Under the pieces are notes generated by a model. That model saw nothing but the letters and a program-made list of their open reading frames with translations, was not told the origin of the DNA and did no database searches. A program made the position numbers and the translations under genes. DNA of 22,164 nt from a virus (Duplodnaviria > Heunggongvirae > Uroviricota > Caudoviricetes): IMG/VR virus record IMGVR_UViG_2657245091_000012. One strand, written 5' to 3'. Of the stretch, positions 6,107 to 19,345 are shown one piece after another; position 1 is the stretch's first letter; each line of letters starts with the position of its first letter.

Positions 6107-7804
6107 GTGAATAAAAACATTCAGCCAGCTCGTGATCGCGAGCGCGAGATTATGAATCGGGCGGCAAGCGTCATGGCTATGACCGTCGATCCGACCACCG
6201 ATGCAGCAGGCAACATGATTGCTGACCAGGCAGTAATGATGGAAAACCTGGATAAAGCAATCCAGAAAGTGCCTATGTTTGAAGGCGTAAATCCAGAGGT
6301 CGCTCGTCAGATCACTGGTGGGTGGGCTATGTCTCTGCATGAGTATAAACGTCAACATGGTCATTACCCGGCAAGTGACATCCTGGCGAACGCACACATG
6401 GCTCTTGAACGCCTGATGACTGAATGTGCCAGTGATACCCATGAAGGCACGGGTAAGGCAATGTTTGAGTCTGTCGCGCAATCAATGCGTAGCTCTGACG
6501 GCGTAATGAAAGTTGCTCAATATGCTGCTCTAATTCTGCCTGCCTCTCTGGGCGCTGCTACCAGTGATGCCTGTACTTTTGTTCCTTGTGATCGTGACGA
6601 GTCAAATATTTATGAACTGGTCAACGTAGCAGGCACAAAATTCGGCACCTTCAAACAAGGTGACGAACTGAATATGCAGTCAGCTGGTGTTTATTCTCAA
6701 ATGAAGCGCCTGTATACCCTTTCCACTAAAGGGGATGGCAGCACCAAAACCTTCCAGTTCGACATCCAAAATTTTGAGGGACAATCCTGCCCGCTTCGCG
6801 CTGGTTATAACAAACTGCTGATCAACCGCAAACCGTCCAAAGTTGACGACGGCGATGGCAACCTTTATTTCAATGCTAAAGACAGCAAAGGTAATGCTTT
6901 CTCAGCGACTGCCAAAGTTGCCTATGACACTGGTGTCATTGACATTACATTTACCCAGGCTCCGCCAGAAGGTACTGAAATTGCTGTTCAGGTCGAAATT
7001 AACATCGAGCGCAATCCAAGCCTGATTCCTGTGATCAACCAGGCTATGCGTAAGTACGAAGTTCGTCCGTCCCAGTACGTAATTGCTTCCGAACACACGG
7101 TAATGTCCGCATCCGATTTAAGCCGTGAGCACGGCCTTGAATTAGCGGCACTTCAGTTCTCCGCGATGCGTAACTGGATCTCCCATGAAACCGACATCAT
7201 GCGTCTGCGCACCCTGGTATTCCATACCGTTTATGGTCGTGAATTTGATGTGGCTCTGCCGGAAGCTCAAAACTATGAGTCCTGGGTCGGCCTCCTGCGT
7301 CACGTAGTAAACGCTCTGTCTCAAGAAATGGCAAATCGTACCCTGACAACGGGTATTCGTGGCGGCTTTGCTGGTGGTGACGCCGCGAACTTCCTGCGCT
7401 CTCTGCCTCCACAGCACTTCCAGATCGCACCAGGTTACGTTCAGTCGCCGTATGTACAGTACATCGGCACCCTGTTTGGCACGATTCGTATTTACGAAGT
7501 GCCGCAACCTGTCTGTGAGCAATTCCAGGCACAGGGATATGACTTCGGGCTGGATGACATCTTCTTCTATGGGCGTGGCGAAGGCATCGGTAAAGCCGGT
7601 CTGATTGCTGGTGATGCAGTCCCAGCAATCCCTTACGTGCACGAAACCAATCCGTCTCTCGTTAACCGTACCACTCTCTGGGGCAGTGCCATCAACGAAG
7701 TACATCCTCGCAACGGTGAAAACTACTTCACCCGCCTGCGTCTGACTCGTGCCAAAGAAGGTGCTATCGACATGCTGACAGGCAAGGTTAACGAAAAAAA
7801 GTGA
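6107..7804 (+). CDS. major virion structural protein, probably the major capsid protein (565 aa); GTG start
   Basis: Large ORF at the head of the structural block, followed by a stem-loop and an Ig-like protein gene and then the sheath gene; the capsid call is inferred from position and size, not from a recognised motif. The start is uncertain (GTG at 6107 or ATG at 6152). Confidence 0.45.
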   Translation: MNKNIQPARDREREIMNRAASVMAMTVDPTTDAAGNMIADQAVMMENLDKAIQKVPMFEGVNPEVARQITGGWAMSLHEYKRQHGHYPASDILANAHMALERLMTECASDTHEGTGKAMFESVAQSMRSSDGVMKVAQYAALILPASLGAATSDACTFVPCDRDESNIYELVNVAGTKFGTFKQGDELNMQSAGVYSQMKRLYTLSTKGDGSTKTFQFDIQNFEGQSCPLRAGYNKLLINRKPSKVDDGDGNLYFNAKDSKGNAFSATAKVAYDTGVIDITFTQAPPEGTEIAVQVEINIERNPSLIPVINQAMRKYEVRPSQYVIASEHTVMSASDLSREHGLELAALQFSAMRNWISHETDIMRLRTLVFHTVYGREFDVALPEAQNYESWVGLLRHVVNALSQEMANRTLTTGIRGGFAGGDAANFLRSLPPQHFQIAPGYVQSPYVQYIGTLFGTIRIYEVPQPVCEQFQAQGYDFGLDDIFFYGRGEGIGKAGLIAGDAVPAIPYVHETNPSLVNRTTLWGSAINEVHPRNGENYFTRLRLTRAKEGAIDMLTGKVNEKK

Positions 7805-7951: not shown

Positions 7952-8230
7952 ATGGCAAACATTCAAGTAACTATCACGCCATCTGACGCAACAGACAAAT
8001 CTTTCACTGTTGAGTCAGATCACCCTGAAATTGTCCAGGTTGATGGCACTACATGTACCGCTCTTAAGGCCGGGCAGGCAGTGCTGACAATCAAAACAAA
8101 TGACGGCAATAAAACCGCACAGTGCACAGTCACTGTTAGGGAGGCACCTAAAAGCGTAAGCGCCGTCAGTGTTGAACCAACTACGAAAGAAGTAACCGTA
8201 GGCGACAACTTCACGGTAAGCGAATCCTGA
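7952..8230 (+). CDS. small Ig-like (Big_2-type) domain protein, possible capsid or tail decoration protein
   Basis: 92 aa; TITPSDATDKSFTVESDHPEIVQVDGTTCTALKAGQAVLTIKTNDGNKTAQCTVTV has the typical bacterial Ig-like group 2 pattern; SD caggag upstream of the ATG. Confidence 0.6.
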   Translation: MANIQVTITPSDATDKSFTVESDHPEIVQVDGTTCTALKAGQAVLTIKTNDGNKTAQCTVTVREAPKSVSAVSVEPTTKEVTVGDNFTVSES

Positions 8231-8235
8231 TCAGA

Positions 8236-8260
8236 GGCTGCCCATTAACCGTGGGTAGCC
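8236..8260 (+). other. stem-loop (ggctgccca / tgggtagcc, one G-U pair) between the Big_2 gene and the sheath gene
   Basis: Direct reading; followed by a T-rich stretch and the SD gagga of the sheath gene. Confidence 0.4.
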
Positions 8261-8297
8261 TTGCCTCGTTCTCTCGCTTTAGAGGATAAGAACCAGC

Positions 8298-9956
8298 ATG
8301 AATAAGATTAGTTTTTCGGTAGGGCAGGCAGCTGGCGTTGCTGTAATGTCAGTAAATGCTGACGCTACCCTCACCAATACCAGCGGTGGCGCATCCGTCT
8401 TTGCTGGGCTTGTAATATCGCGTCGTGGCGCACCGGGTAAGGTACTGAAAGTTGACGATACGACTTATCAAAGCGTATTAGGTTCACCGATTCACCCTCG
8501 CCAGGGCGCGGCATTTGAACCATATCGCCACGTGGAGCGTGCAGTAAAAGGCGGCTCTGGATATGTCGTTCGAGTTTGCGCTAAAGACATGAAGGTGCCT
8601 GGTATTTCTGTTTCCGTTGTGGGCAAAGCAAAAGCGGCAAAGGCGAGCAAAGAACTTTCCGTTGAACCTACTGAAACCACAGTAAATCCAGGTGACACAT
8701 TAAGCGTTGGTGTTGCTTCAACTGCAACGACTCAATCAGTGTCCTTCACACCCAAAGAGACGCCCCAGATTAAAGGTGAAGAGAAGGCATTATTCTTCAT
8801 CAAAGATGGTGATGCATCTCAAAATCGCACGTTATCACTAACTCGCGATGATGAAGAAAGCGAACTCTTTACGCTGACGCTGAAAGAAAAACAAACCGAT
8901 GGGTCCATTGAGGTGCTGGAAAGCCACCAAGTGTCTTTCAATCCAGAAGGCACTAACGACATGGGCCAACCAGCATGGATTCCGACACTGCTTGAAAGCC
9001 AGTCCACTCGCATTGGTGCCGTACTGGCAGATAATGCAGAAGCATCCGCTGCTCAACTCATTTTTGAGGATGTAGCTTTTGAAGGTGGTACTGATGGAGA
9101 TCTGTCCGAAATTGACACTGAAGACTATCTGGAAGCATTAAAGGTTCTCGAAGCTTCAGAGGTTAATTACACCGCATTGCTGTCACTGGGTTGTTATGAC
9201 GCATCCGCCTTAGCCGCAATCAAAAAGCTGGCTGAAGATGTTCGCGTAGACATGTTCTATGACCTGAAGGGCAACCAGACACCTGAAAACGCTATTTCAG
9301 AAGCGAAAAGCCATAGTTTTGGCGGCTCACATCAACCAAGCCGTTACTACTTCCCGCTCTCCTGCCGAGATACCTTCACTGGGATGAATGTCGTCTATGG
9401 CATTAGTTGCGACGCATTCGTAGCAAAAGCAAAAGGGGTAGCGCTGGTACCGGATGTTGGTGGTTGGCATTACGCACCGGCAGGTATATCACGCGCGATT
9501 ATTGATCGACAGAACATTGCCCGAATTCCAAATATCGGTGCAGTTGATCGTGAAGCGTTCGTTCTTGCGCGCATTAATCCGGTTTCAGTTGCTGCTGATG
9601 GGTCCGTTTACATTGACGACTCTTTAACAACTTACAGCAAAAACAACTATCTGCGATTCCAGCATGTGTCTTCCTTGATGAACGCCATCGCCAGAGATTT
9701 CTATGAAGTAGCTCAGGCGATTAAGCACGAACCGGATGGCATTACCAAAGAAACGCTAATGAAAGCAATGACTGAATTGCTTGACCGTTACGTTGCAGCC
9801 GGTGCGCTGGTTACTCCACGTGACAAGTCCCAGGGTGAAGATCCATATGTTGTTCAGGTTGTCCAAAAGGACATCGATCTGTGGGAAGTGTCCTGGTCTG
9901 TTTGTCCGACCGGTACAGCTCGCCGAATCGTCGGTAAGCCAATTCTGATGCGCTGA
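8298..9956 (+). CDS. contractile tail sheath protein
   Basis: 552 aa; the C-terminal region (YLRFQHVSSLMNAIARDFYEVAQAIKHEPDGITKETLMKAMTELLDRYVAAGAL) matches the conserved sheath C-terminal pattern I recall from R-pyocin and P2-type sheaths (...VFEPND...FLRDQWRDGAL...); strong SD. Confidence 0.7.
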   Translation: MNKISFSVGQAAGVAVMSVNADATLTNTSGGASVFAGLVISRRGAPGKVLKVDDTTYQSVLGSPIHPRQGAAFEPYRHVERAVKGGSGYVVRVCAKDMKVPGISVSVVGKAKAAKASKELSVEPTETTVNPGDTLSVGVASTATTQSVSFTPKETPQIKGEEKALFFIKDGDASQNRTLSLTRDDEESELFTLTLKEKQTDGSIEVLESHQVSFNPEGTNDMGQPAWIPTLLESQSTRIGAVLADNAEASAAQLIFEDVAFEGGTDGDLSEIDTEDYLEALKVLEASEVNYTALLSLGCYDASALAAIKKLAEDVRVDMFYDLKGNQTPENAISEAKSHSFGGSHQPSRYYFPLSCRDTFTGMNVVYGISCDAFVAKAKGVALVPDVGGWHYAPAGISRAIIDRQNIARIPNIGAVDREAFVLARINPVSVAADGSVYIDDSLTTYSKNNYLRFQHVSSLMNAIARDFYEVAQAIKHEPDGITKETLMKAMTELLDRYVAAGALVTPRDKSQGEDPYVVQVVQKDIDLWEVSWSVCPTGTARRIVGKPILMR

Positions 9957-9963
9957 TTTATAA

Positions 9964-9985
9964 CCCCCGCTAAATGATGCGGGGG
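9964..9985 (+). other. GC-rich stem-loop (cccccgc / gcggggg, 8-nt loop) right after the sheath gene, immediately followed by SD and the next start
   Basis: Direct reading of complementary arms. Confidence 0.5.
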
Positions 9986-9999
9986 AGAGAGGTTTGAAT

Positions 10000-10734
10000 A
10001 TGAAAAATTATACTGCTGATCCTTTTATGCGTGCGATTTTCGGTTCTGGCTGCTTTGAAAGCGGTGATAAATCCACGCAGGACAATAATGATAACGCCAT
10101 GCTGGAAAGCGCAGGACAGAAAGGAAAGGACACTCAACCAAAGCCCAAAGACGACATTGAAACCGCGATGATGGAAGCGGTTGAATCCCGTGCACAAGGT
10201 GATATGCGCAGCCTGGCAGCTTCCATGCTTGCTGGTTGGGTTGAAGATGGTGATCCGGAGGCTGACTCATTTGATGCATTAGCAATCACTATGGCTGGCC
10301 TGGCTGATATCGATGAAGACACCGATTTCACCGATGAGCAAATCGATGCTTATAACGATGCTCTCGCAGCTCTTGCTGATGCAGCTGTTGCGCTTGGCGC
10401 TGATCAGGATGATGTAACCGAAATGATCGACGATGAAGATGACTCAGCTGCCGAACGTGTTTATGACGCTCTTTCCGAAAGCGACACCGACATGATGGAA
10501 ACAGCTATTGCCATTTACACCGTTGCTGGTGGTGATAGCGCAATGCTGGAAGCGGTACGTAAAAAAGTGGTTCGTGATGGCAAGGTTACCATCATCCGTA
10601 AACGCCCGCGTCCTCGCCGCATGACGTCATTGCAAAAACAGGCGCTGAAAAAAGCACGCCGCAAAGCACATACATCCGTAGCGAATATCAACCGCAAAAA
10701 ATCAATGCGCATTCGCAAAAAACGCGGTTTGTAA
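10000..10734 (+). CDS. hypothetical virion-block protein with a strongly acidic body and a highly basic C-terminal tail (244 aa)
   Basis: Asp/Glu-rich centre (DIDEDTDFTDEQIDAYNDALAALADAAVALGADQDDVTEMIDDEDDSAAE) and Lys/Arg-rich C-terminus (IIRKRPRPRRMTSLQKQALKKARRKAHTSVANINRKKSMRIRKKRGL); ATG at 10000 with SD gagagg (the track start at 9994 is a TTG). Confidence 0.5.
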   Translation: MKNYTADPFMRAIFGSGCFESGDKSTQDNNDNAMLESAGQKGKDTQPKPKDDIETAMMEAVESRAQGDMRSLAASMLAGWVEDGDPEADSFDALAITMAGLADIDEDTDFTDEQIDAYNDALAALADAAVALGADQDDVTEMIDDEDDSAAERVYDALSESDTDMMETAIAIYTVAGGDSAMLEAVRKKVVRDGKVTIIRKRPRPRRMTSLQKQALKKARRKAHTSVANINRKKSMRIRKKRGL

Positions 10735-10741
10735 GTGACAT

Positions 10742-10764
10742 AGGCCGCCTGCAAAGGTGGCCTC
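10742..10764 (+). other. stem-loop (aggccgcc / ggtggcct) downstream of the acidic-protein gene
   Basis: Direct reading; followed by SD gggag. Confidence 0.35.
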
Positions 10765-10783
10765 TACCTGGGAGAAATAGCGT

Positions 10784-11374
10784 TTGATTTGCGGCGCGAT
10801 AATGCCTGACGGAATAAGTCCGTTAATGAAGGTTTATATCCTCTCTTCAGAGGATATGGTCGTCGGTTATATCGGTGAAGGCTCTACCGCAGAACTGTCA
10901 TCAATGTGGCAATCACCATTTGAAAATCAGTCAGTAGGAGGTTTGCTTGGCGGTATTAGCGCTGCGGCTGGCTCTCTTGCAGATACGCTTCAGACCGCAA
11001 CCGGCGTAACAACAAAAACCCTCTTCAACTCAATGCTTGTTTGGGAAGGTCAGCAACCGCCTGAATTTAATCTGGTAATTGATTTCATGGCGACAACGAA
11101 CGCGCAACTTGAAGTGAACGCAGCCATTACAGCATTGCTGAAGATGGAATCGCCGGAACTGAACAATGTAGCGCCATTCGGTCGTCGCCCGGAGACAGTA
11201 ACGTTAAACATAGGTAGGAACATAGCCCTTACCGACGTTGTTATCAAAAGCGTGAGTTACCAACTGGACGCCCCACGCACACCGGAAGGCTATTTCACTC
11301 ATAACACGGTAACCCTGCAATGCAGCGGAAACACCTCGATTAACCGTAGCAACATATCATCTGTTTTTGTGTAG
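10784..11374 (+). CDS. hypothetical tail-associated protein (about 180-196 aa); start ambiguous (TTG at 10784 with GGGAG SD, or ATG at 10802 or 10826)
   Basis: ORF between the sheath and the tube-like gene; no recognisable motif. Confidence 0.4.
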   Translation: MICGAIMPDGISPLMKVYILSSEDMVVGYIGEGSTAELSSMWQSPFENQSVGGLLGGISAAAGSLADTLQTATGVTTKTLFNSMLVWEGQQPPEFNLVIDFMATTNAQLEVNAAITALLKMESPELNNVAPFGRRPETVTLNIGRNIALTDVVIKSVSYQLDAPRTPEGYFTHNTVTLQCSGNTSINRSNISSVFV

Positions 11375-11382
11375 GAGTATTT

Positions 11383-11874
11383 ATGTCCGGTTTTGCAAAT
11401 ACAAAAGCCGATATCGCTTTTCTGAAATCCCGGTTGAACAAAAACCTGGCAGCGGGCGAAAAACTTATTGGTTCAGAATTCTGGATGACTATTAAAGGTT
11501 ACGAAAAACTATCTGTACTTGTTCGTACCACTCAGTTGCCAGAAATGACACGCGAAGACGTGGAAGACTATGGTCCTGGCGGCATGAAGATCAACCAGCA
11601 CGGGCCATTGCGTAACTCAGGTGAATTCCAGGTCACCTGCTCTGAAACCATCGAAGGGGATGTTCTGGCAGCCGTAAAACAAATGGTATATGGCAAAGAA
11701 TATCTGGAAATTACCTTACAGGCAGCGGCTGAATCCAATAGCGGTAACCATAAAGGTCTGATCCGCACATATTATCACTGCAAAGTGTATTCCGACGCAG
11801 TGGACTTCTCCACCGAAGACGTAACAGCAGTCGTTAAGCCTTCCCTGCGTATTGTTTACAACTGGGTAGAGTGA
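11383..11874 (+). CDS. putative tail tube protein (163 aa)
   Basis: Size and position (downstream of the sheath, followed by a stem-loop) and loose resemblance to gp19-type tube proteins, including the C-terminal ...YNWVE; SD aggag 7 nt upstream. Confidence 0.45.
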   Translation: MSGFANTKADIAFLKSRLNKNLAAGEKLIGSEFWMTIKGYEKLSVLVRTTQLPEMTREDVEDYGPGGMKINQHGPLRNSGEFQVTCSETIEGDVLAAVKQMVYGKEYLEITLQAAAESNSGNHKGLIRTYYHCKVYSDAVDFSTEDVTAVVKPSLRIVYNWVE

Positions 11875-11880
11875 TCTCTT

Positions 11881-11899
11881 TCCCGCCCTTGTGGCGGGA
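11881..11899 (+). other. stem-loop (tcccgcc / ggcggga, 5-nt loop) immediately after the tube-like gene
   Basis: Direct reading of complementary arms. Confidence 0.5.
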
Positions 11900-11926
11900 A
11901 CTCCTTGTATTTGAGTTGTAGGTACG

Positions 11927-12478
11927 ATGACACCAACCGAATTATTAGAAAGCGTTAAAGCACGATTTAATCCACTGCTTGTGCGTGAAGAAGAAACGCT
12001 GAAAGCCTTCCTGATCAAAGCTCTGACCACGTATCAGGACAGGGCAGGGGTAGTGAAAACGTTAAAACTTGAAAAAGCTGGTGGTACTGCAATCCCATTA
12101 CCAGAAGATTATCTCTCTCTGGTTCATGTTACCGACAACAATGGCCTGTTGGTCTATTCGGATGAATTATCCGGATTTATTGAATTAGAGCTAACAGGTT
12201 CAGAGCGCTGGCCTTTTCGAATGCTGTATCTGGTTAATCTACGCGACAGAAAGCTGGATGAATGGCAAGTGCCTCCTGCAATCATTGGAATGCTGGAGGA
12301 ATATCTAGAGGCGCTTATCAATGTAAGAAATGTCGCTCGGCAGCGTAGAGCGTCCATCGACGGGAAATTTGACTACTCCGATCTGCCCGATGAAGCCACG
12401 CTATATGCCCGCGTGCAGGAGATTGAGGAAAAAATGTCCTCAAACCGGGCCATTATTCCGGGGGCTACCATTTTTTAA
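11927..12478 (+). CDS. hypothetical protein (183 aa)
   Basis: ORF in the tail block; no motif recognised. Confidence 0.4.
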   Translation: MTPTELLESVKARFNPLLVREEETLKAFLIKALTTYQDRAGVVKTLKLEKAGGTAIPLPEDYLSLVHVTDNNGLLVYSDELSGFIELELTGSERWPFRMLYLVNLRDRKLDEWQVPPAIIGMLEEYLEALINVRNVARQRRASIDGKFDYSDLPDEATLYARVQEIEEKMSSNRAIIPGATIF

Positions 12479-12493
12479 CGCTGGAGGCGCAGA

Positions 12494-13201
12494 GTGAGTA
12501 TTTTCAGCAGCGTTGGTAGAACGTTGACCACCGCATTGTCATTTAACACGAAATCATTCACCAGCAACCTCATTAGCGACATTCTTGATAAAGCCATATC
12601 AGGCGGCGGGGTAAGCGGGAATTACAGTAGCGATATTGCCTACGGGAAAAATATTGTTGCTGCCGCTATGCGTATCCGTTACGCCCAGGGGTGGCAGTGG
12701 ACCGTTGAAGTGGATGGTCTGAACGGCTTCGATATGTTCGTGAAGGATATCACCTACAGCAGTGGGAACATCGAGACAGAAAGCAAGGTGATCGGCAGCG
12801 TAGAATTCAGCAAGCCAACCTATGTTAGCGCCGGACCGGTCACTATGACCGTGAGGGATACCGAAGATGGCAAGATCATGGACTGGTTCAAAGAGCGTCG
12901 TTCTCGTGTAACAAATCCTGATGGAACAATAAACCTTCCTCCTGAATATCTGATGAAAATCCGTGTCTACCGGGTGACTCAGGACGGCGGAAAAGAACTG
13001 GAAGAAGAAATGCGCGTATTTCCTACGCAACTTGGGGAAATCACACGCTCACGTGATCAGGTGTCAGAGTTCTTGTCATACCCAATCACTTTCCAGAAAT
13101 ACACATCCGCAGGCTCAGGTGTTTCTGCTTTGGTCAACGGTGCCGCTGGCATGGCTACAAGTGCGTTAAAGGGGGCTGTGAGTGGAGTGATCAAATTCTG
13201 A
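12494..13201 (+). CDS. hypothetical protein (235 aa), GTG start with GGAGG SD
   Basis: ORF in the tail block; no motif recognised. Confidence 0.4.
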   Translation: MSIFSSVGRTLTTALSFNTKSFTSNLISDILDKAISGGGVSGNYSSDIAYGKNIVAAAMRIRYAQGWQWTVEVDGLNGFDMFVKDITYSSGNIETESKVIGSVEFSKPTYVSAGPVTMTVRDTEDGKIMDWFKERRSRVTNPDGTINLPPEYLMKIRVYRVTQDGGKELEEEMRVFPTQLGEITRSRDQVSEFLSYPITFQKYTSAGSGVSALVNGAAGMATSALKGAVSGVIKF

Positions 13202-13290
13202 ATAGCTTTAATTATGTGTGCTGGAGGGTTGCTCATTTCCCGTCAGCACCCACGCCCTCAACGATAGCGGGTAGGGAAGGTAGCGCAATT

Positions 13291-13585
13291 TTGAGGGCAT
13301 TTTTTACATCATCAATTCATCTGTAATGAAGGCATTCTTTACACATTTCAATAATATCAATCAGTTAACACAGTGAATGATAATAAAAAAGCGCAATAAG
13401 AATGCACGATACGCACGATATTGGTTGAGGGCGATTTTTACATAGTCCTTACATATCAATACGTTATATAAAAACACAACTTGCTAATAACAATATACAT
13501 GCAATTAAGATGTAAAAATTGCCCTCAATTGCCGATCGTTAAGGGCAAATTCTACACCTTGAGAGGGGTGTAAAAATTGCCCTTA
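13291..13585. repeat. iteron array downstream of repA (incC-like copy-control repeats), mixed orientation
   Basis: Copies of the GAGGGCA(A/T)TTTTTACA(T/C)C family at 13291-13310 (+), 13425-13444 (+), 13509-13528 (-), 13540-13558 (+, degenerate) and 13566-13585 (-); the last two form a near-palindrome overlapping the repA stop. Confidence 0.6.
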
Positions 13586-14338
13586 AGACTGCTGATAGGT
13601 AAATTTTATCCTGGTAACTTTGCCGCCTTCCGTCACCTCTGAGAAGACTATTTTCATTTTTGTATTTTTTTCAATCTCTGCTACAGCCTTCGTTAAAAAA
13701 CTTCTCTTAAATTCGGCATACCGCTGATAGCTTTTTGGTAACCCATAACGCTCCCGCATCCATTCGACGCCAAGTATGGCAAAGCCGCTTCCATCATCCT
13801 TCCTGTACTGGCATAAGGACTCATAAAGCCGCATAGAATAAGGATTTGTAAGGCGAGATACTTCGGTAAAATTCAGCCTTGTGAATCTCTTATCAAGCAG
13901 AGTAAAAAACGGCATGAGATATGGATTAAGATGAATAATGTAAGTCCCGCGCCGTGGTGAATAGGCATCCTTAATCATCCAAGGATAAGACTCATAACTG
14001 TCTTCTGATTCGGTCGATTCATCAGGGTTATATATCGTAACTTTCTTCTCGCTAAGCCCTGAAATGGCCTTACGAATATCCTTGCTGGCTTCAGCAGAGG
14101 GCAAATTATACATCTCTGCATATTCGTTGACCGTCAACTCACAGGCACCTGAACCAAGAACGCCATCCTTAGAAGCATAGCGAAGTCTTCCCACCACAAT
14201 AAACAACAGTCGCTTTTGGTCGCGAGTCAGGTGATAAGCAGCCTCCGTGATCTCATTGGCTTGTGCCAAACTACGACTAATAGGTGTCGCTGACTCAATC
14301 AGGCTGACGGCTTTTGCTGTTAATTCCGCTCTGTTCAT
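13583..14338 (-). CDS. repA: iteron-binding replication initiator, Rep_3 family, F RepE-like
   Basis: Strong similarity to F RepE as recalled (LTEAAYHLTRDQKR, SAEASKDIR, NPYSMRLYESLCQYRKDDGSGF, PKSYQRY). The track start (14371) is a TTG inside an iteron; the ATG at 14336-14338 (MNRAELTAK...) gives an N-terminus of RepE-like length. Confidence 0.9.
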   Translation of the reverse strand: MNRAELTAKAVSLIESATPISRSLAQANEITEAAYHLTRDQKRLLFIVVGRLRYASKDGVLGSGACELTVNEYAEMYNLPSAEASKDIRKAISGLSEKKVTIYNPDESTESEDSYESYPWMIKDAYSPRRGTYIIHLNPYLMPFFTLLDKRFTRLNFTEVSRLTNPYSMRLYESLCQYRKDDGSGFAILGVEWMRERYGLPKSYQRYAEFKRSFLTKAVAEIEKNTKMKIVFSEVTEGGKVTRIKFTYQQS

Positions 14339-14361
14339 AACCCTGTGTGATCCTTCAAATG

Positions 14362-14622
14362 GTGAGGGCAATTTTTACATCACTTTGAGGGCAATTACTA
14401 CACCTTTTGAGGGCAAATCTTACACCTTTTGAGGGCAAATCTTACACCGATCGTATTTAATTGAGGGCAAATCTTACACCAGCCTCCTCTACAGCCCGCG
14501 CCACTACTGGCTCCAGCGACGCCTAAAAAGGATCTAAAAAGGATTAAAAATGGAAAAAGGTTTATAAAAATACTCTGTGGATATGTGAGTAGCGTCACTT
14601 AAGGTGTAAAAATCACCCTCAA
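14362..14622. repeat. replication origin region: five direct 22-bp-spaced iterons (TTGAGGGCAAATCTTACACC), an AT-rich tract, a DnaA-box-like site and one inverted iteron
   Basis: Iterons at 14362-14381, 14384-14404, 14405-14426, 14427-14448 and 14461-14480; AT-rich tract 14521-14572 with repeated aaaaagga; tgtggatat at 14576-14584 is 8/9 to the DnaA box TGTGGATAA; inverted iteron variant at 14603-14622. Iteron sequence resembles F oriS iterons as recalled. Confidence 0.7.
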
Positions 14623-15562: not shown

Positions 15563-18500
15563 ATGGATATCAGCCCGTTAGCGACGTTGAACAATTACCG
15601 CAATGGCGAGCACTCCATATGTCAAAAGCCCTGGAAGAAAAATACAAAGCTCAAGCTGGGAAACGTTGATCGCGCTGGTAAAAGAGAGGTTATTTTGAAA
15701 GAGAATAAAGACCGTATCGCAATAATTGACGCTATTCAGGAGGCGAGCACAAACGAACTTAAAGCTCTTGCTGAGGTAAAAGACGCCATTCTTTCTGGGG
15801 CAAGCACCATAACTCAACAGGACGAAAGGCAAGGCAGAGTTAGCAACAGACTATCACGCAGGCGTAAAGACTACGAGCAAAGTACATCTGATAGCGTTAG
15901 AGATGTCCAAACTAACCCATATAAAAAACGTCTCCCTGCTAAAAAGGAAAGGGCACCGATAAACCAAACCGTGGACCGCTCTATCGTTGCAACGAACACA
16001 CCAGAAAGTGTTCGCTCCGTGCAATCACGTCAGACCATCCGAAAACCGGACGGTTTTATACCGGTAGCTGCTAATTCAGCCCCTCTTGAACCACAATCTC
16101 CCCAAAGTCTAAAAGGCCCGCTGCGGGATAGTAGTGGACGTTTTGTATCCCAAAAAAGCAATGAGGATGTAGCCAGAAAAAAAGAATTGCAGAACGCACG
16201 TAAAGCCGACGCAAAATTACAAGCTGGCTTTCTCAGAAAGCTAGGTTCCATTATGGGGGTAGATGGCAATCAGTCTTCCAGTGAAGAGTCTTTAACAAAT
16301 GCAGCTGGTGTCGGTGCTGGTGGGCCGTTATGGATGGCGGCTCGTGGCATGTACGACATAACTAAAGAGATCACAGGTAAAGCAGAATCTCTTAAAGAAT
16401 GGGTAGAAAAGGGGAAAAAAGAAACATCAACCTCGAAAGCGATATCACCAGTAATTACTTATCCGGCGGCGGTGAATTCTCAAAAAGCAACATCTGCAAA
16501 AGCGTTCAATAACGCTGTTGAGACAAAATCCGCACAAGCAGTAGAAGAGCAAACCAAAATCCTTCAGACCAATGACAACAAAATAATTGATGGTCTGGAA
16601 AATGTTTCTGACGAGATACTTAAGCTTCGGAAATCAGTGTATTCTGGAAATAAGTTCGGCTTAAGTGATCTCTGGAAAAATCGAGCAAGCAGAAGAAATA
16701 AAATCAATATTGGTGATCAGACGGGAAAAAATAAACGGAACAAATCGAAAAGGAAAGGCCGCAATCTTGGAAAAAAAGCACTCTCCGCTGGCGAAAAAGT
16801 TGCTGCCGGTAGCGCTGCGGCTGGCACTGGTGTCGGAGCAGCAAAAGTAGTTAAAAATAAGATCAGCAAACCCAAAGATGTAAGCACTATCAGCGATACA
16901 TCAAAGGGGATTGCAAAGGAAACAAAAAATACTGCTAAGGCCGTGAAGTCAGCTGGTGTTGTGGCTGAAGATGCCACCATTAAAACCGGCGAAGCCATTG
17001 CAAAGAAAAAAACTGAATCTGTAGCCCTCAAAAGTGCTGCAAAAATAGGTGTTAAATCAGCAGCATCCACAGCGGCAAGAGCGGTCCCTATCATCGGTTC
17101 GCTGGCAATGGCTGGATATGACGCCATAGATGGTTACACAGATACAGAGGCGCAAAAGGCAGCCTTTGGTTTAAGTGACGATAATGCTGTATCCGAACAG
17201 CAAAAAACGGCTTACGCAACAGCTAATGTGCTCGATATGGGGGGCTTGGTGTCGGGCGCAACGAACTTGATAGGGAAAGGAATTTCTGCGCTAGGATTTG
17301 AAAGAGCAGGTGAAAAACTTCAGAATTTTGATACCGGAGATATTGCTCGTGGTGTTAACGGCGCGGTAGATATCACCAAATCTGTTTTTGGTAGCCTTAA
17401 GGATACATTTTTATCCACTGACGAAAACACGAAACAAGTAAAAAAAGCTGTTGAAGACGGCACCAAAAAAACTGTCGATGCGATTCATTCTCTAGGTGAA
17501 CAATTACAAGGTGGGCGTAATGGCGAGGATGGAGTTGGTGAGCACGGGTATACTTCTCCAACTGAATTTAGTGCACCTGCCAACAACACCATTGCAGCGG
17601 ATCTGAATATTGGCGGCAGCAACGCTAAAAACCGCAATTACCGAAATAATAATCTCGGCAATCTTGTTTTTGCCAACCAGGAAGGGGCGACGCTGGAATC
17701 GCCAAATGCAAAAGGTGAACAACGTTTTGCTCGATTTAACACGCCTGAAGAAGGGATCAGGGCACTGGCAAACCAGGTTTCCAGCTATTACAACGGCACC
17801 AGTGCCGCAGCGGGATATCAGAAGTTACAGACGGTATCCAGCATCATTTCAAAATGGGCACCGCCAAATGAGAACAATACTAACCAATATATTGATAACG
17901 TCAGTAAATATCTTGGTGTATCGCCTAATGAAAAAATAGATGTCAGCAACCCAGAGGTTATGACGCAATTAGTTCGTGCAATTGCGACGAAAGAAGGCGG
18001 AAATCCGGCAGTTAATAATGAGTTCATTAAGAATGCACTTGGAGCATTTAACACAAACACTGGTCGATGGGAGGGACAATTCTCTGACGAAACATTGGCG
18101 CGGATTAATAAAATTCAGAAAGAAAATGGTGGTCAGCTAATTGCCCGCGATTCGCAATATAGTGTTGGTCGCAAGGTAAAATATGCTAATGGAAAATCTC
18201 CAGCTCATCCAGTTTTGAATGCCGTTCCGACAGCAACACAACAGCCAATTGAGGTTGCACAACATGCCCAGGCAGTCAAAAAGCCACAAAAAACAGGCAA
18301 TCAATCGCAACCGATTAATCCAGAGAATGTTGATGTTAATACTGGCTCGCCATCAAGTCTGCTTGAGAGATTAATCGCTATAAATGAAAGCGGGGTAGGT
18401 AATTTATTTGGAGGTGCGGCTACCAGCCTTGCTGGTACAAGCCTTGGCCTGATTAAGGATTTTGCGTCGGCGACTTCGTTTGGTTCTATATCTTCGCTTT

Positions 18501-19345
18501 CCGAAAAAGCGAAAGGAATGGATCAGGCTCTTACTGAAAAGATATCCAGCTTAACCGGTAAATCTTTTGGATTTCAAAAAGCAAGCCAGGTAACTGATAT
18601 AAGAGACGCTTTACAAAAAAGACCAAAAGCTGAACTCGATATGCCTTCAGTGGATCTTCTCTCCGGTGTTTCTTCGGCAAGTGAGAGTGAAAAAATCTCT
18701 GTAAACTCAAGGGGGATTCCAGTTTATGACAATGGATACAAGGTAATTGATGGTGAAGATAAGGGGGTGCTTGGCTCTTTGTTTGACTCGTCATTAACAG
18801 GTCTGAAACGTATTAGCTCTGCTGTGTTACCTGCAATTGGCGATAACGTTTCACAACTTATTGGTGGGGTAGATGGCACAGGCATTGTTAATGATTTGAT
18901 TTATCAGGCTACTGGGCAGAATTCAACAATTGCCAGGGCTATTAGCCCGCTTACCAGGAGCGCCGGTAGTTGGCTGAATAATGGTATTCAACAAACCGCA
19001 GATAGCATTAGAGGTATATCAAACGAAGCCAATAATGCCATATTTGGCTCTGCGTCAGCCGTGCAAGAACCTTTTCTTGCTTTGCCACCACAGCTTCCTA
19101 CTGTAACAGATCTCGCACGAAGCGGAATAAGACAACCATTAACTACTGACACTATAAATAACGATCCTGCTATGTTGAAGGCGCTGGATAACATCTGCTC
19201 TATCCTGAACGATCTTCTGAATGTGAACAAGAACAATACAAAAGGCGATCCGGATAAGGTTGTCAAAACATCGCAGCCGCAACCGCGACCACGTGCTAGC
19301 ACAACTATTAATGACCCGTCGCTGGATGCTCTGCTTGAGGATTAA
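15563..19345 (+). CDS. large tail protein, putative tape measure protein (1260 aa)
   Basis: Very long ORF with a Lys-rich coiled-coil-like N-terminal third, Ala/Gly-rich hydrophobic segments (AGSAAAGTGVGAAKVV, AVPIIGSLAMAG), and position between tube-like and baseplate-like genes; contains a conserved-looking internal segment (NNNLGNLVFANQEGATLESPNAKGEQRFARFNTPEEGIRALANQV) of unknown function. Confidence 0.5.
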   Translation: MDISPLATLNNYRNGEHSICQKPWKKNTKLKLGNVDRAGKREVILKENKDRIAIIDAIQEASTNELKALAEVKDAILSGASTITQQDERQGRVSNRLSRRRKDYEQSTSDSVRDVQTNPYKKRLPAKKERAPINQTVDRSIVATNTPESVRSVQSRQTIRKPDGFIPVAANSAPLEPQSPQSLKGPLRDSSGRFVSQKSNEDVARKKELQNARKADAKLQAGFLRKLGSIMGVDGNQSSSEESLTNAAGVGAGGPLWMAARGMYDITKEITGKAESLKEWVEKGKKETSTSKAISPVITYPAAVNSQKATSAKAFNNAVETKSAQAVEEQTKILQTNDNKIIDGLENVSDEILKLRKSVYSGNKFGLSDLWKNRASRRNKINIGDQTGKNKRNKSKRKGRNLGKKALSAGEKVAAGSAAAGTGVGAAKVVKNKISKPKDVSTISDTSKGIAKETKNTAKAVKSAGVVAEDATIKTGEAIAKKKTESVALKSAAKIGVKSAASTAARAVPIIGSLAMAGYDAIDGYTDTEAQKAAFGLSDDNAVSEQQKTAYATANVLDMGGLVSGATNLIGKGISALGFERAGEKLQNFDTGDIARGVNGAVDITKSVFGSLKDTFLSTDENTKQVKKAVEDGTKKTVDAIHSLGEQLQGGRNGEDGVGEHGYTSPTEFSAPANNTIAADLNIGGSNAKNRNYRNNNLGNLVFANQEGATLESPNAKGEQRFARFNTPEEGIRALANQVSSYYNGTSAAAGYQKLQTVSSIISKWAPPNENNTNQYIDNVSKYLGVSPNEKIDVSNPEVMTQLVRAIATKEGGNPAVNNEFIKNALGAFNTNTGRWEGQFSDETLARINKIQKENGGQLIARDSQYSVGRKVKYANGKSPAHPVLNAVPTATQQPIEVAQHAQAVKKPQKTGNQSQPINPENVDVNTGSPSSLLERLIAINESGVGNLFGGAATSLAGTSLGLIKDFASATSFGSISSLSEKAKGMDQALTEKISSLTGKSFGFQKASQVTDIRDALQKRPKAELDMPSVDLLSGVSSASESEKISVNSRGIPVYDNGYKVIDGEDKGVLGSLFDSSLTGLKRISSAVLPAIGDNVSQLIGGVDGTGIVNDLIYQATGQNSTIARAISPLTRSAGSWLNNGIQQTADSIRGISNEANNAIFGSASAVQEPFLALPPQLPTVTDLARSGIRQPLTTDTINNDPAMLKALDNICSILNDLLNVNKNNTKGDPDKVVKTSQPQPRPRASTTINDPSLDALLED

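What the first reader, a model, noticed from the sequence alone, without database searches (positions are those of the whole stretch)
10000..10734. Acidic-body, basic-tail 244-aa protein between sheath and tube genes
The composition is extreme: a long Asp/Glu-rich middle and a Lys/Arg-rich C-terminal 50 aa. Sitting between the sheath and tube genes, it could be a packaged DNA-mimic-type anti-restriction or anti-defence protein, a scaffold or assembly factor, or a nucleic-acid-binding ejection protein. None of these is an obvious expectation at this position.
Basis: partly seen in the sequence, partly recalled or inferred. Interest (0 to 1): 0.55.

Follow-up and report, generated by a model that had tools for sequence, protein, structure and literature searches.

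The report
Protease-processed phage head core protein
This gene is annotated as a phage P1-type "baseplate or tail tube" protein, but it carries the same cutting signals as the capsid protein, so it is most likely an internal head protein that the head-maturation protease splits into an acidic domain and a very basic peptide.

Summary
ORF 10000-10734 (+) encodes 244 aa with an acidic body (residues 60-184, net -32) and a basic tail (185-244, net +24). No shuffle of 20,000 reaches this charge segregation.

The window is 97.7% identical to phage-plasmid D6. The ORF is D6 orf47, the homologue of P1 gene 21 ("baseplate or tail tube"), in family phrog_1053 (unknown function). It has no Pfam, PDB or fold match.

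The new result is three conserved motifs: AMLE|S, AMME|A and AMLE|A. They copy the Edman-proven maturation cleavage site of the P1 capsid protein (AMLE|S).

- Across 79 related loci, the residue before the predicted cut (E, D or S) at the site ahead of the basic tail matches the capsid protein's cleavage residue in 79 of 79.
- At least three of these switches are independent.
- Positive controls co-vary in the same way: DarA, a known protease substrate, and a predicted self-cleavage site in the protease Pro.
- The sheath does not co-vary.
- The gene follows the capsid and sheath genes in 68 of 68 loci fetched by capsid homology.

I conclude that it is a head-internal substrate of the prohead protease, not a tail part. 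What its fragments do afterwards is inferred. No biochemical data were available.

The parts
10000..10734 (+). Whole ORF (244 aa plus stop). It is D6 orf47, the homologue of P1 gene 21, in family phrog_1053.
   Evidence: phrog_1053, E = 3e-85, full length; 100% identical to D6; 41-44% to P1 gp21.
10000..10107 (+). Predicted N-terminal propeptide (residues 1-36). It is disordered apart from a short helix at residues 8-15.
   Evidence: AlphaFold2 pLDDT 40-57 over residues 1-50. It ends at the invariant Glu36.
10096..10110 (+). Site 1: A-M-L-E|S (residues 33-37). The predicted prohead-protease cut is after Glu36.
   Evidence: It is identical to the Edman-proven P1 gp23 site AMLE|S. Apart from Met1, Glu36 is the only invariant residue in the first 79. 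It matches the capsid protein's state in 71 of 79 loci.
10165..10179 (+). Site 2: A-M-M-E|A (residues 56-60). This is a possible additional cut after Glu59.
   Evidence: Glu59 and Ala60 are at least 90% conserved. The triplets E-E-E (88) and D-D-D (18) dominate. The site lies inside a predicted helix, so it is less certain.
10177..10551 (+). Acidic helical domain (residues 60-184; 13.1 kDa, pI 4.1, net charge -32).
   Evidence: AlphaFold2 gives a helical bundle with pLDDT 91-97 over residues 61-170 and 78 over 171-180. Trp80, Ala95, Gly133 and Ala151 are invariant.
10540..10554 (+). Site 3: A-M-L-E|A (residues 181-185). The predicted cut after Glu184 separates the acidic body from the basic tail.
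   Evidence: Glu184 is invariant. The site lies in a loop with pLDDT about 60. It matches the residue before the capsid protein's cleavage point in 79 of 79 loci across the E, D and S states.
10552..10731 (+). Basic C-terminal domain (residues 185-244; 7.1 kDa, pI 12, net charge +24). It forms a beta-hairpin (187-200) and a long helix (210-241), and is the best conserved part of the family.
   Evidence: The same module occurs in Listeria phage LIS04 and Bacillus phage SP-15.
6458..6472 (+). Comparator: A-M-F-E|S in the major capsid protein (ORF 6107-7804, residues 118-122). This is the predicted maturation cleavage site of this phage's own capsid protein.
   Evidence: It aligns with P1 gp23 AMLE|S, which is cut between E120 and S121 by Edman sequencing (PMC9024508).
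9964..9985 (+). G+C stem-loop (7 bp, 8-nt loop) in the 43-nt spacer between the sheath gene and the ORF. It has no U-tract.
   Evidence: dG -17.9 kcal/mol, z = -3.0. The terminator scan did not call it. Its function was not tested.

Best explanation
The ORF encodes a head-internal ('core') protein of a P1/D6-type myophage. It is not a tail or baseplate part.

Proposed mechanism:
1. It is made from the high-expression late operon, in the order capsid, sheath, this gene, tube initiator, tube.
2. It is built into the prohead.
3. The prohead protease Pro, which trims 120 residues from the capsid protein, cuts it after Glu36 and Glu184, and perhaps after Glu59.
4. This frees three pieces: a short N-terminal propeptide, a 13-16 kDa acidic helical domain, and a 60-residue peptide of net charge +24 (a beta-hairpin plus a helix).

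Shown by comparative sequence evidence: the motifs, their identity to the capsid cleavage site, and their co-variation with it.

Inferred:
- Before cleavage, the acidic domain neutralises and shields the basic domain, so the precursor does not stick to nucleic acid in the cytoplasm. The acidic domain may also act as a scaffold-like filler of the prohead.
- After cleavage, incoming DNA displaces the acidic piece, and the basic peptide stays with the packaged DNA or on the inner capsid surface.
For: 1. Motifs AMLE|S (33-37), AMME|A (56-60) and AMLE|A (181-185) are conservation islands. Glu36 and Glu184 are 2 of only 13 invariant columns in 58 homologues of 37-86% identity.
2. The P1 capsid protein gp23 is cut at NKAMLE|SVAAEM (Edman; PMC9024508; sequence). 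This window's capsid protein has KAMFE|SV at the aligned place.
3. Co-variation within the protein, site 1 against site 3, among 189 family members: E/E 125, D/D 37, S/S 4, A/A 2, and only 4 E/D mismatches.
4. Co-variation between proteins. In 79 loci, the residue before the capsid protein's cleavage point equals that at site 3 in 79 of 79, and at site 1 in 71 of 79. Examples: D-type phages have capsid TLD|S or LFD|S with MLD|A or LD|AVYK here; S-type phages have capsid MLLS|S or LLLS|S with ILS|S, LLLS|S or MLLS|A here.
5. The switches are independent. The D-type capsid protein of L092 is 48% identical to an E-type capsid protein but only 24% to the main D clade. The S-type proteins are closest to E-types.
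6. Controls. DarA, a known Pro substrate, changes from LLE|A to LD|A, FD|A, MD|A or YD|A in 18 of 18 DarA-like homologues from the D-type relative scan. The predicted P1 site E68|A69 fits the cryo-EM model, in which residues 1-69 are missing. Pro Glu170 becomes Asp in 20 of 20, while four other look-alike Glu residues in Pro do not. Three look-alike Glu residues in the sheath do not switch.
7. AlphaFold2 (pLDDT 82.7) puts site 1 in a disordered segment and site 3 in the loop between the two domains.
8. It is a core gene. Of loci fetched by capsid homology alone, 68 of 68 have it downstream of the capsid gene, 66 of them 1.9-2.6 kb away. The order Pro, capsid, sheath, this gene, PmgG, tube is conserved.
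9. It is absent from every solved P1 tail, baseplate or capsid chain. The model is helices plus one beta-hairpin, with no tube-type fold, and no fold match exceeds chance.
Against: - No biochemical data were available. Cleavage and presence in the prohead are inferred from sequence only.
- P1 gene 21 carries the label 'baseplate or tail tube', taken from classical amber mutants. As far as I recall, those mutants made heads but no tails. I could not read Walker & Walker 1983 or Lobocka 2004.
- P1 gp21 was not among the 23 proteins of the P1 virion proteome. This is weak evidence: only one 7-aa fully tryptic peptide would survive the predicted processing.
- The gene sits next to sheath and tube genes, not next to the protease or portal genes.
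- In P1 itself, site 3 reads MLTE|A rather than xMLE|A.
- The E/D co-variation is partly inflated by shared ancestry. The number of independent switches is small, at least three.
- Site 2 lies inside a confident helix.
Confidence: 0.62

Rival explanations
1. It is a true scaffolding protein. It is needed to build a correctly sized capsid shell. The basic C-terminal domain docks on the capsid protein, and the protease cuts this anchor off, as at the herpesvirus maturational site. All fragments then leave the head before DNA enters.
For: - The same cleavage-site evidence as for the best explanation.
- The P1 literature says that no separate scaffold has been identified (PMC9024508; PMC12810830).
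- The body is acidic and helical, and the gene lies in the operon of the most abundant virion proteins.
- It was not detected in virions.
Against: - The model is a compact helical bundle, not an elongated coiled coil.
- P1 already has a 120-residue N-terminal capsid domain, thought to act as a scaffold, and a coiled-coil-like C-terminal part of Pro.
- If the classical gene-21 mutants really map here, they still made heads. This rests on my memory and is unverified.
- The Listeria phage with a related module already has a protease fused to a coiled-coil region.
Confidence: 0.25
2. It is a packaged anti-restriction or anti-defence DNA mimic. The acidic domain is freed inside the head, kept there and injected with the DNA to decoy host nucleases.
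For: - The charge density, -32 over 125 residues, is in the range I recall for Ocr (for the value here).
- The protein is head-targeted and processed like the P1 Dar proteins.
- The published proteome could not have seen the acidic fragment.
Against: - No fold similarity to Ocr, ArdA or any other solved protein.
- It is a universal, fixed-position core gene in 68 of 68 loci across 495 clusters at 50% identity. Accessory anti-defence genes are usually patchy.
- The best conserved part is the basic tail, not the acidic surface.
Confidence: 0.07
3. The current annotation is right. It is a tail or baseplate structural protein, or a tail assembly chaperone.
For: - The label 'baseplate or tail tube' for P1 gene 21 and 'putative baseplate protein' for D6 orf47.
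- The conserved position between the sheath gene and the tube-initiator gene.
- P1 CRISPRi scored the gene as essential.
Against: - It matches no chain of the solved P1 tail and baseplate structures, whereas Gp22 and BplB do. It is not mentioned in the P1 tail-baseplate preprint.
- It was not found in the virion proteome.
- It has no tube or baseplate fold.
- It does not lie next to the tape-measure gene, which is preceded by PmgB.
- A tail protein has no reason to track the capsid protein's cleavage residue through E, D and S states.
- The CRISPRi result is uninformative, because knock-down is polar on pmgG and bplB, as the authors themselves note.
Confidence: 0.08
4. The conserved motifs are not cleavage sites. 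They are short docking motifs shared with the capsid protein and DarA, for example for binding the protease or the shell, and the protein stays uncut.
For: Sequence co-variation shows only that one specificity pocket reads all these motifs. It does not prove hydrolysis at each one.
Against: - In the capsid protein the same motif is a proven scissile site.
- In DarA it coincides with the processed end.
- The motifs sit exactly at domain borders, in flexible segments.
Confidence: 0.08

Closest known systems
Phage P1 gp21 (gene 21, 'baseplate or tail tube'; NC_005856 54592-55407) and D6 orf47
   Same: - They are direct homologues. The ORF is 100% identical to D6 orf47 in protein and 41-44% identical to P1 gp21.
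- They share the acidic-body, basic-tail layout, the position after the sheath gene and the motif sites.
   Different: - Nothing differs in kind. What differs is the interpretation: the database label is a tail function, while the evidence here points to a head-internal protease substrate.
- P1 gp21 is longer (271 aa), with an extra Pro/Gln-rich N-terminal stretch.
T4 prohead core and internal proteins (IPI-III, gp22, gp67, gp68, Alt), cut by the T4 prohead protease after Glu in hydrophobic-x-Glu motifs (from my own knowledge of the T4 literature)
   Same: - They are proteins inside the prohead that are cut after Glu, with hydrophobic residues just upstream, by the same protease that trims the capsid protein.
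- Short N-terminal pieces are removed.
- Some fragments stay with the DNA.
   Different: - There is no sequence or fold similarity.
- I know of no T4 core protein with a single chain built as an acidic domain, a cleavage site and a +24 basic domain.
- P1 Pro has no Pfam match to the T4-type protease family.
P1 DarA (internal head protein, processed by Pro)
   Same: It belongs to the same phage group. It carries the same type of motif (LLE|A), with the same E-to-D co-variation, and it is located in the head.
   Different: DarA is a large accessory protein (639 aa). It stays bound under the capsid vertices and serves anti-restriction. The present family is small, universal in the lineage and bipolar in charge.
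Scaffolding proteins with a basic C-terminal coat-binding domain (P22 gp8) or a protease-removed C-terminal anchor (herpesvirus scaffold maturational site) (from my own knowledge)
   Same: They have an acidic helical body and a basic C-terminal domain. In herpesviruses, a protease site lies exactly between the body and the anchor.
   Different: - The predicted body is a compact bundle, not an elongated rod.
- There is no homology.
- A scaffolding role is untested.
Self-neutralised precursors of very basic proteins: eosinophil major basic protein with its acidic pro-piece, and adenovirus pre-protein VII and pre-mu, which are cut by the viral protease inside the particle (from my own knowledge)
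   Same: An acidic piece and a strongly basic piece sit in one chain with a protease site between them. In adenovirus the basic product binds the packaged genome.
   Different: These are unrelated in sequence and come from unrelated biological systems. DNA binding by the basic peptide is not shown here.
Ocr / ArdA DNA-mimic anti-restriction proteins
   Same: High density of Asp and Glu on a small helical protein.
   Different: There is no fold match. The gene is core rather than accessory, and it is fused to a conserved basic domain.

Membership tests
P1 gp21 / D6 orf47 family (phrog_1053) | Full-length profile match | tested here: met
   phrog_1053, E = 3.4e-85, residues 1-244 against profile positions 1-230. 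All 24 distant members tested also fall in phrog_1053.
P1 gp21 / D6 orf47 family (phrog_1053) | Conserved position downstream of the capsid and sheath genes and upstream of the PmgG-like and tube genes | tested here: met
   In one search, 68 of 68 loci have it, 66 of them 1.9-2.6 kb after the capsid gene.
Substrates of the prohead maturation protease (head core / internal proteins) | Carries the same cleavage motif as the phage's own capsid protein | tested here: met
   AMLE|S and AMLE|A here, against KAMFE|S in this window's capsid protein and the proven AMLE|S in P1 gp23.
Substrates of the prohead maturation protease (head core / internal proteins) | The motif residue changes together with the capsid protein's when the protease specificity differs between lineages | tested here: met
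   79 of 79 at site 3 over the E, D and S states. The switches are independent. The positive controls DarA and Pro co-vary, and the negative control (sheath) does not.
Substrates of the prohead maturation protease (head core / internal proteins) | The protein is physically present in proheads and is cut there | not testable with these tools
   This needs proheads from protease or packaging mutants, western blots or top-down MS, and N-terminal sequencing.
Phage scaffolding proteins | Elongated helical or coiled-coil body | tested here: inconclusive
   AlphaFold2 gives six helices over residues 51-176 packed as a bundle with pLDDT above 90. The pTM is only 0.58, and oligomers were not modelled.
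Phage scaffolding proteins | Required for shell assembly and absent from the mature virion | not testable with these tools
   It was not detected in P1 virions, but that method is blind to it. No non-polar knockout is on record.
Ocr / ArdA-type DNA mimics | The fold of a known DNA mimic | tested here: not met
Ocr / ArdA-type DNA mimics | Dense surface of acidic residues | tested here: met
   Net charge -32 over 125 residues.
Tail assembly chaperones (lambda gpG/gpGT type) | Gene lies between the tube and tape-measure genes; homology to known chaperones | tested here: not met
   The tape-measure gene (15563-19345) is preceded by a PmgB-like gene, not by this one. There is no Pfam or PHROG chaperone match. 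A frameshift was not examined.
Tail tube / baseplate structural proteins (the current annotation) | Tube-type or baseplate-type fold, or presence in solved P1 tail and baseplate structures | tested here: not met
   No PDB chain matches, although P1 Gp22 and BplB chains are present. The model is helices plus one hairpin. It is not mentioned in the P1 structure papers.

The most novel reading that the evidence does not exclude
The family is a self-neutralised pro-protein. It delivers a conserved, histone- or protamine-like peptide of net charge +24 into the head of a whole lineage of myophages. The acidic domain keeps the basic domain inert until the maturation protease separates them inside the prohead. 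The basic peptide then binds and organises the packaged genome, and may enter the cell with it. This would be a phage counterpart of adenovirus protein VII or mu that carries its own acidic chaperone.
Probability: 0.3. Interest if true: 0.72.

Novelty: new variant of a known kind. Interest (0 to 1): 0.6.

Why it matters
- P1 is a classical model phage, and its relatives are among the commonest phage-plasmids of enterobacteria. Gene 21 has kept the label 'baseplate or tail tube' for decades, and the label has spread into hundreds of genome records as 'tail tube protein'.
- If the protein is a head-internal substrate of the maturation protease, the label is wrong.
- The open question of what fills and organises the P1 prohead gains a concrete candidate. 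Two recent papers state that no separate scaffold is known.
- The cleavage rule of the P1-type protease becomes predictable from sequence: two hydrophobic residues, then E, D or S, then a small residue. The co-variation test used here could find other protease substrates in uncharacterised phages.
- The N-terminal propeptide and cleavage sites could also be used to load foreign proteins into P1 capsids, as was done with the DarB signal.

Tried and rejected
- **Loose motif.** The pattern [MILV][LFMI]E[SAGN] is not specific. It also hits the sheath three times in this window, so I replaced motif counting with alignment-based co-variation and controls.
- **Unreadable papers.** Lobocka 2004 and Walker & Walker 1983 are not held. 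The classical phenotype and the way gene 21 was assigned to this ORF remain unchecked.
- **Failed locus scans.** The metagenome scan for S-type relatives found nothing. I reached them by exact protein look-up instead. The contigs of the A-type relatives P0140 and P0171 are too short to hold the capsid gene, so the A state is untested against the capsid protein.
- **Ideas considered and dropped.** No shared N-terminal targeting signal is visible among P1 gp21, DarA and DarB. The stem-loop at 9964-9985 is not a canonical terminator, as it has no U-tract.

Full report
**Identity of the window and the ORF**

Bases 8000-13500 of the window are 97.7% identical to Escherichia phage D6, a P1-like plasmid prophage. 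The ORF at 10000-10734 (+) is D6 orf47, annotated 'putative baseplate protein, similar to P1 gene 21'. Its protein is 100% identical to D6 orf47 and 41-44% identical to P1 gp21.

The gene order in the window is as follows:

| Coordinates | Gene |
|---|---|
| 6107-7804 | major capsid protein |
| 7952-8230 | small Ig-like ORF |
| 8298-9956 | sheath |
| 10000-10734 | this ORF |
| 10784-11374 | PmgG-like |
| 11383-11874 | BplB (the true tube protein, PDB 8jan) |
| 11927-12478 | PmgC-like |
| 12494-13201 | Tub |
| 13583-14371 (minus strand) | RepA-like gene |
| downstream | PmgB, the tape-measure protein Sit and baseplate genes |

- Residues 60-184 have net charge -32 (pI 4.1), and residues 185-244 have net charge +24 (pI 12).
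- The spread of net charge between 52-residue windows is 41. Shuffles give 14.3 +/- 3.4, and none of 20,000 reaches 41. No other structural protein of P1 or of this window exceeds 21.
- All 120 close homologues listed and the 150 listed best of 495 distant cluster representatives keep the layout and a length of about 220-260 aa.

**What the databases say**

- There is no Pfam family.
- The PHROG family phrog_1053 has 'unknown function'.
- No solved structure matches by sequence, although the P1 sheath and tube proteins are in the PDB.
- The AlphaFold2 model is confident (mean pLDDT 82.7). Residues 1-50 are disordered. Residues 51-176 form a helical bundle, with pLDDT 91-97 over 61-170. A loop spans 177-186. 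A beta-hairpin spans 187-200 and a long helix spans 210-241.
- The protein therefore has no Ocr or ArdA fold, no tube fold, and no chaperone or scaffold homology.

**The literature on P1 gp21 is thin**

- Gene 21 is listed as 'baseplate or tail tube', with an amber mutant reported.
- It is not among the 23 proteins of the P1 virion proteome, in which ORFs 54, 55, 57 and 58 are present and ORF 56 is not.
- The P1 structure papers do not mention it.
- Two papers state that P1 has no identified separate scaffolding protein.
- The CRISPRi 'essential' call is uninformative. Knock-down is polar on pmgG and bplB, as the authors themselves explain.

**The key finding: shared cleavage motifs**

An alignment of 58 homologues shows three islands of conservation with the same pattern:

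- A-M-L-E-S at residues 33-37;
- A-M-x-E-A at residues 56-60;
- A-M-L-E-A at residues 181-185.

Glu36 and Glu184 are two of only 13 invariant columns. Glu36 sits in an otherwise variable, disordered N-terminus.

The P1 capsid protein is cut between E120 and S121 (Edman sequence SVAAEM; PMC9024508). The sequence there is NKAMLE|SVAAEM. The capsid protein in this window reads KAMFE|SV at the aligned position. P1 DarA is a known substrate of the protease Pro, and it has a single such motif, DLLE|AISS. Its predicted cut, E68|A69, fits the cryo-EM model, which lacks residues 1-69.

**Co-variation**

Among 189 family members, the residue before the predicted cut is the same at site 1 and site 3: E/E 125, D/D 37, S/S 4, A/A 2, and only four E/D mismatches.

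I then fetched genomic loci for D-type relatives (80 IMG/VR loci), for further E-type loci and one more D-type locus, and for S-type relatives.

- In D-type phages, the capsid column aligned to the P1 cleavage site reads TLD|S, LFD|S or ILD|S.
- In S-type phages, it reads MLLS|S or LLLS|S.
- Over 79 loci, site 3 agrees with the capsid protein's state in 79 of 79, and site 1 in 71 of 79.
- For three of these loci (L034-L036), the capsid alignment at the site was ambiguous, and I assigned the D state by eye from the sequence VYLDD|A.
- The switches are not one event. The D-type capsid protein of L092 is 48% identical to an E-type capsid protein but only 24% to the main D clade, and the S-types are nearest to E-types.

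**Controls**

- DarA-like proteins from the D-type relative scan carry LD|A, FD|A, MD|A or YD|A at the aligned site (18 of 18).
- In Pro itself, one site (Glu170, GMFE|S) becomes Asp in 20 of 20. Four other look-alike Glu residues do not, which also predicts a self-cleavage site behind the protease domain.
- Three look-alike Glu residues in the sheath do not switch to Asp.

The test therefore separates real substrates from chance motif matches. It places this ORF with the capsid protein, DarA and Pro.

**Distribution**

A reverse search fetched loci by capsid homology alone. Of the loci with enough downstream sequence, 68 of 68 carry the gene after the capsid gene, 66 of them 1.9-2.6 kb away. 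The order Pro, capsid, sheath, this gene, PmgG, tube recurs. This is the distribution of a core morphogenetic gene, not of an accessory anti-defence gene.

**Why virion proteomics does not count against a head location**

After the predicted processing, P1 gp21 yields only one fully tryptic peptide of 7-30 residues. The acidic core is a single 102-residue tryptic peptide, and the basic tail falls into pieces of 1-7 residues.

**Interpretation**

The comparative evidence supports that the protein is read by the same specificity pocket as the capsid maturation site. The simplest meaning is that it sits in the prohead and is cut by Pro at the borders of its domains.

The rest is inferred:
- The nearly balanced charges (-32 and +24) and the cleavage site between them suggest that the acidic domain shields the basic domain until maturation.
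- The strict conservation of the basic hairpin and helix (Arg192, Gly194, Lys201, Gln212, Lys218, Arg239) suggests a specific partner. This could be DNA, the inner capsid surface or the portal.
- A scaffold-type role is a serious variant.
- A DNA-mimic role and the annotated tail role are unlikely.

**Unresolved conflict**

The classical label implies a tail defect in gene-21 amber mutants. There are two ordinary ways out. The amber mutations may be polar on the tube-initiator and tube genes just downstream. Or the classical cistron may have been placed on this ORF by map order alone. Neither pmgG nor bplB had a classical cistron, although both are essential. I could not read the two papers that would settle this.

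Noticed in passing
window 9964-9985: A 7-bp all-G/C stem with an 8-nt loop lies in the 43-nt spacer between the sheath gene and the ORF (dG -17.9 kcal/mol, z = -3.0). It has no U-tract. P1 has only a 9-nt spacer at this place. It may be an mRNA stability element or an element that sets expression level.
   Followed up: partly
window 7952-8230 (+): A 92-aa ORF between the capsid and sheath genes consists of a bacterial Ig-like domain (Big_2, E = 6e-8; phrog_215 'structural protein with Ig domain'). P1 has no gene in this slot. S-type relatives carry a 120-130-aa ORF there; the one scanned (L105) has a weak Rho_N-like hit. It may be a decoration protein.
   Followed up: partly
window 13583-14371 (-): A RepA-like plasmid replication initiator gene sits on the opposite strand in the middle of the tail gene cluster, between Tub and PmgB. 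In P1, tub and pmgB are adjacent.
   Followed up: no
L003 19014-20033 (P1 pro), residue Glu170: The P1 prohead protease Pro has a motif GMFE|S at residues 167-171. Its Glu becomes Asp in 20 of 20 homologues from D-type phages, while four other look-alike Glu residues do not change. This predicts a self-cleavage site between the protease domain and a coiled-coil-like C-terminal part.
   Followed up: partly
L003 27904-29823 (P1 darA), residues 65-69: The sequence predicts the DarA processing site as DLLE68|A69. This fits the cryo-EM model, which lacks residues 1-69, and co-varies to LD|A, FD|A, MD|A or YD|A in D-type phages. The papers I read gave only an approximate fragment size.
   Followed up: yes
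L005 5419-6444 (Listeria phage LIS04 gene 64) and Bacillus phage SP-15 A0A127AVY7: A distant SP-15-like jumbo myophage has a 341-aa protein with an acidic stretch followed by KKVVRGGQVVKIK...RKAHTSKANRNRRKSMIIRKRR, clearly related to the basic tail here, and then an extra C-terminal domain. Its gene lies between a neck-protein gene and a tail-protein gene. That phage has a T4-type prohead protease fused to a coiled-coil region.
   Followed up: partly
window 10784-11374 and 11927-12478: PHROG and RefSeq name PmgG and PmgC 'head morphogenesis' proteins. The P1 knockout and proteome study assigns them to the baseplate-tube junction and the head-tail adaptor. Annotation in this gene cluster has drifted in general.
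   Followed up: no
L003 17312-19021 (P1 prt), residues 556-560: The P1 portal protein has a motif QILE|SVFKE twelve residues from its C-terminus. Too few portal homologues were in the loci to test co-variation.
   Followed up: no
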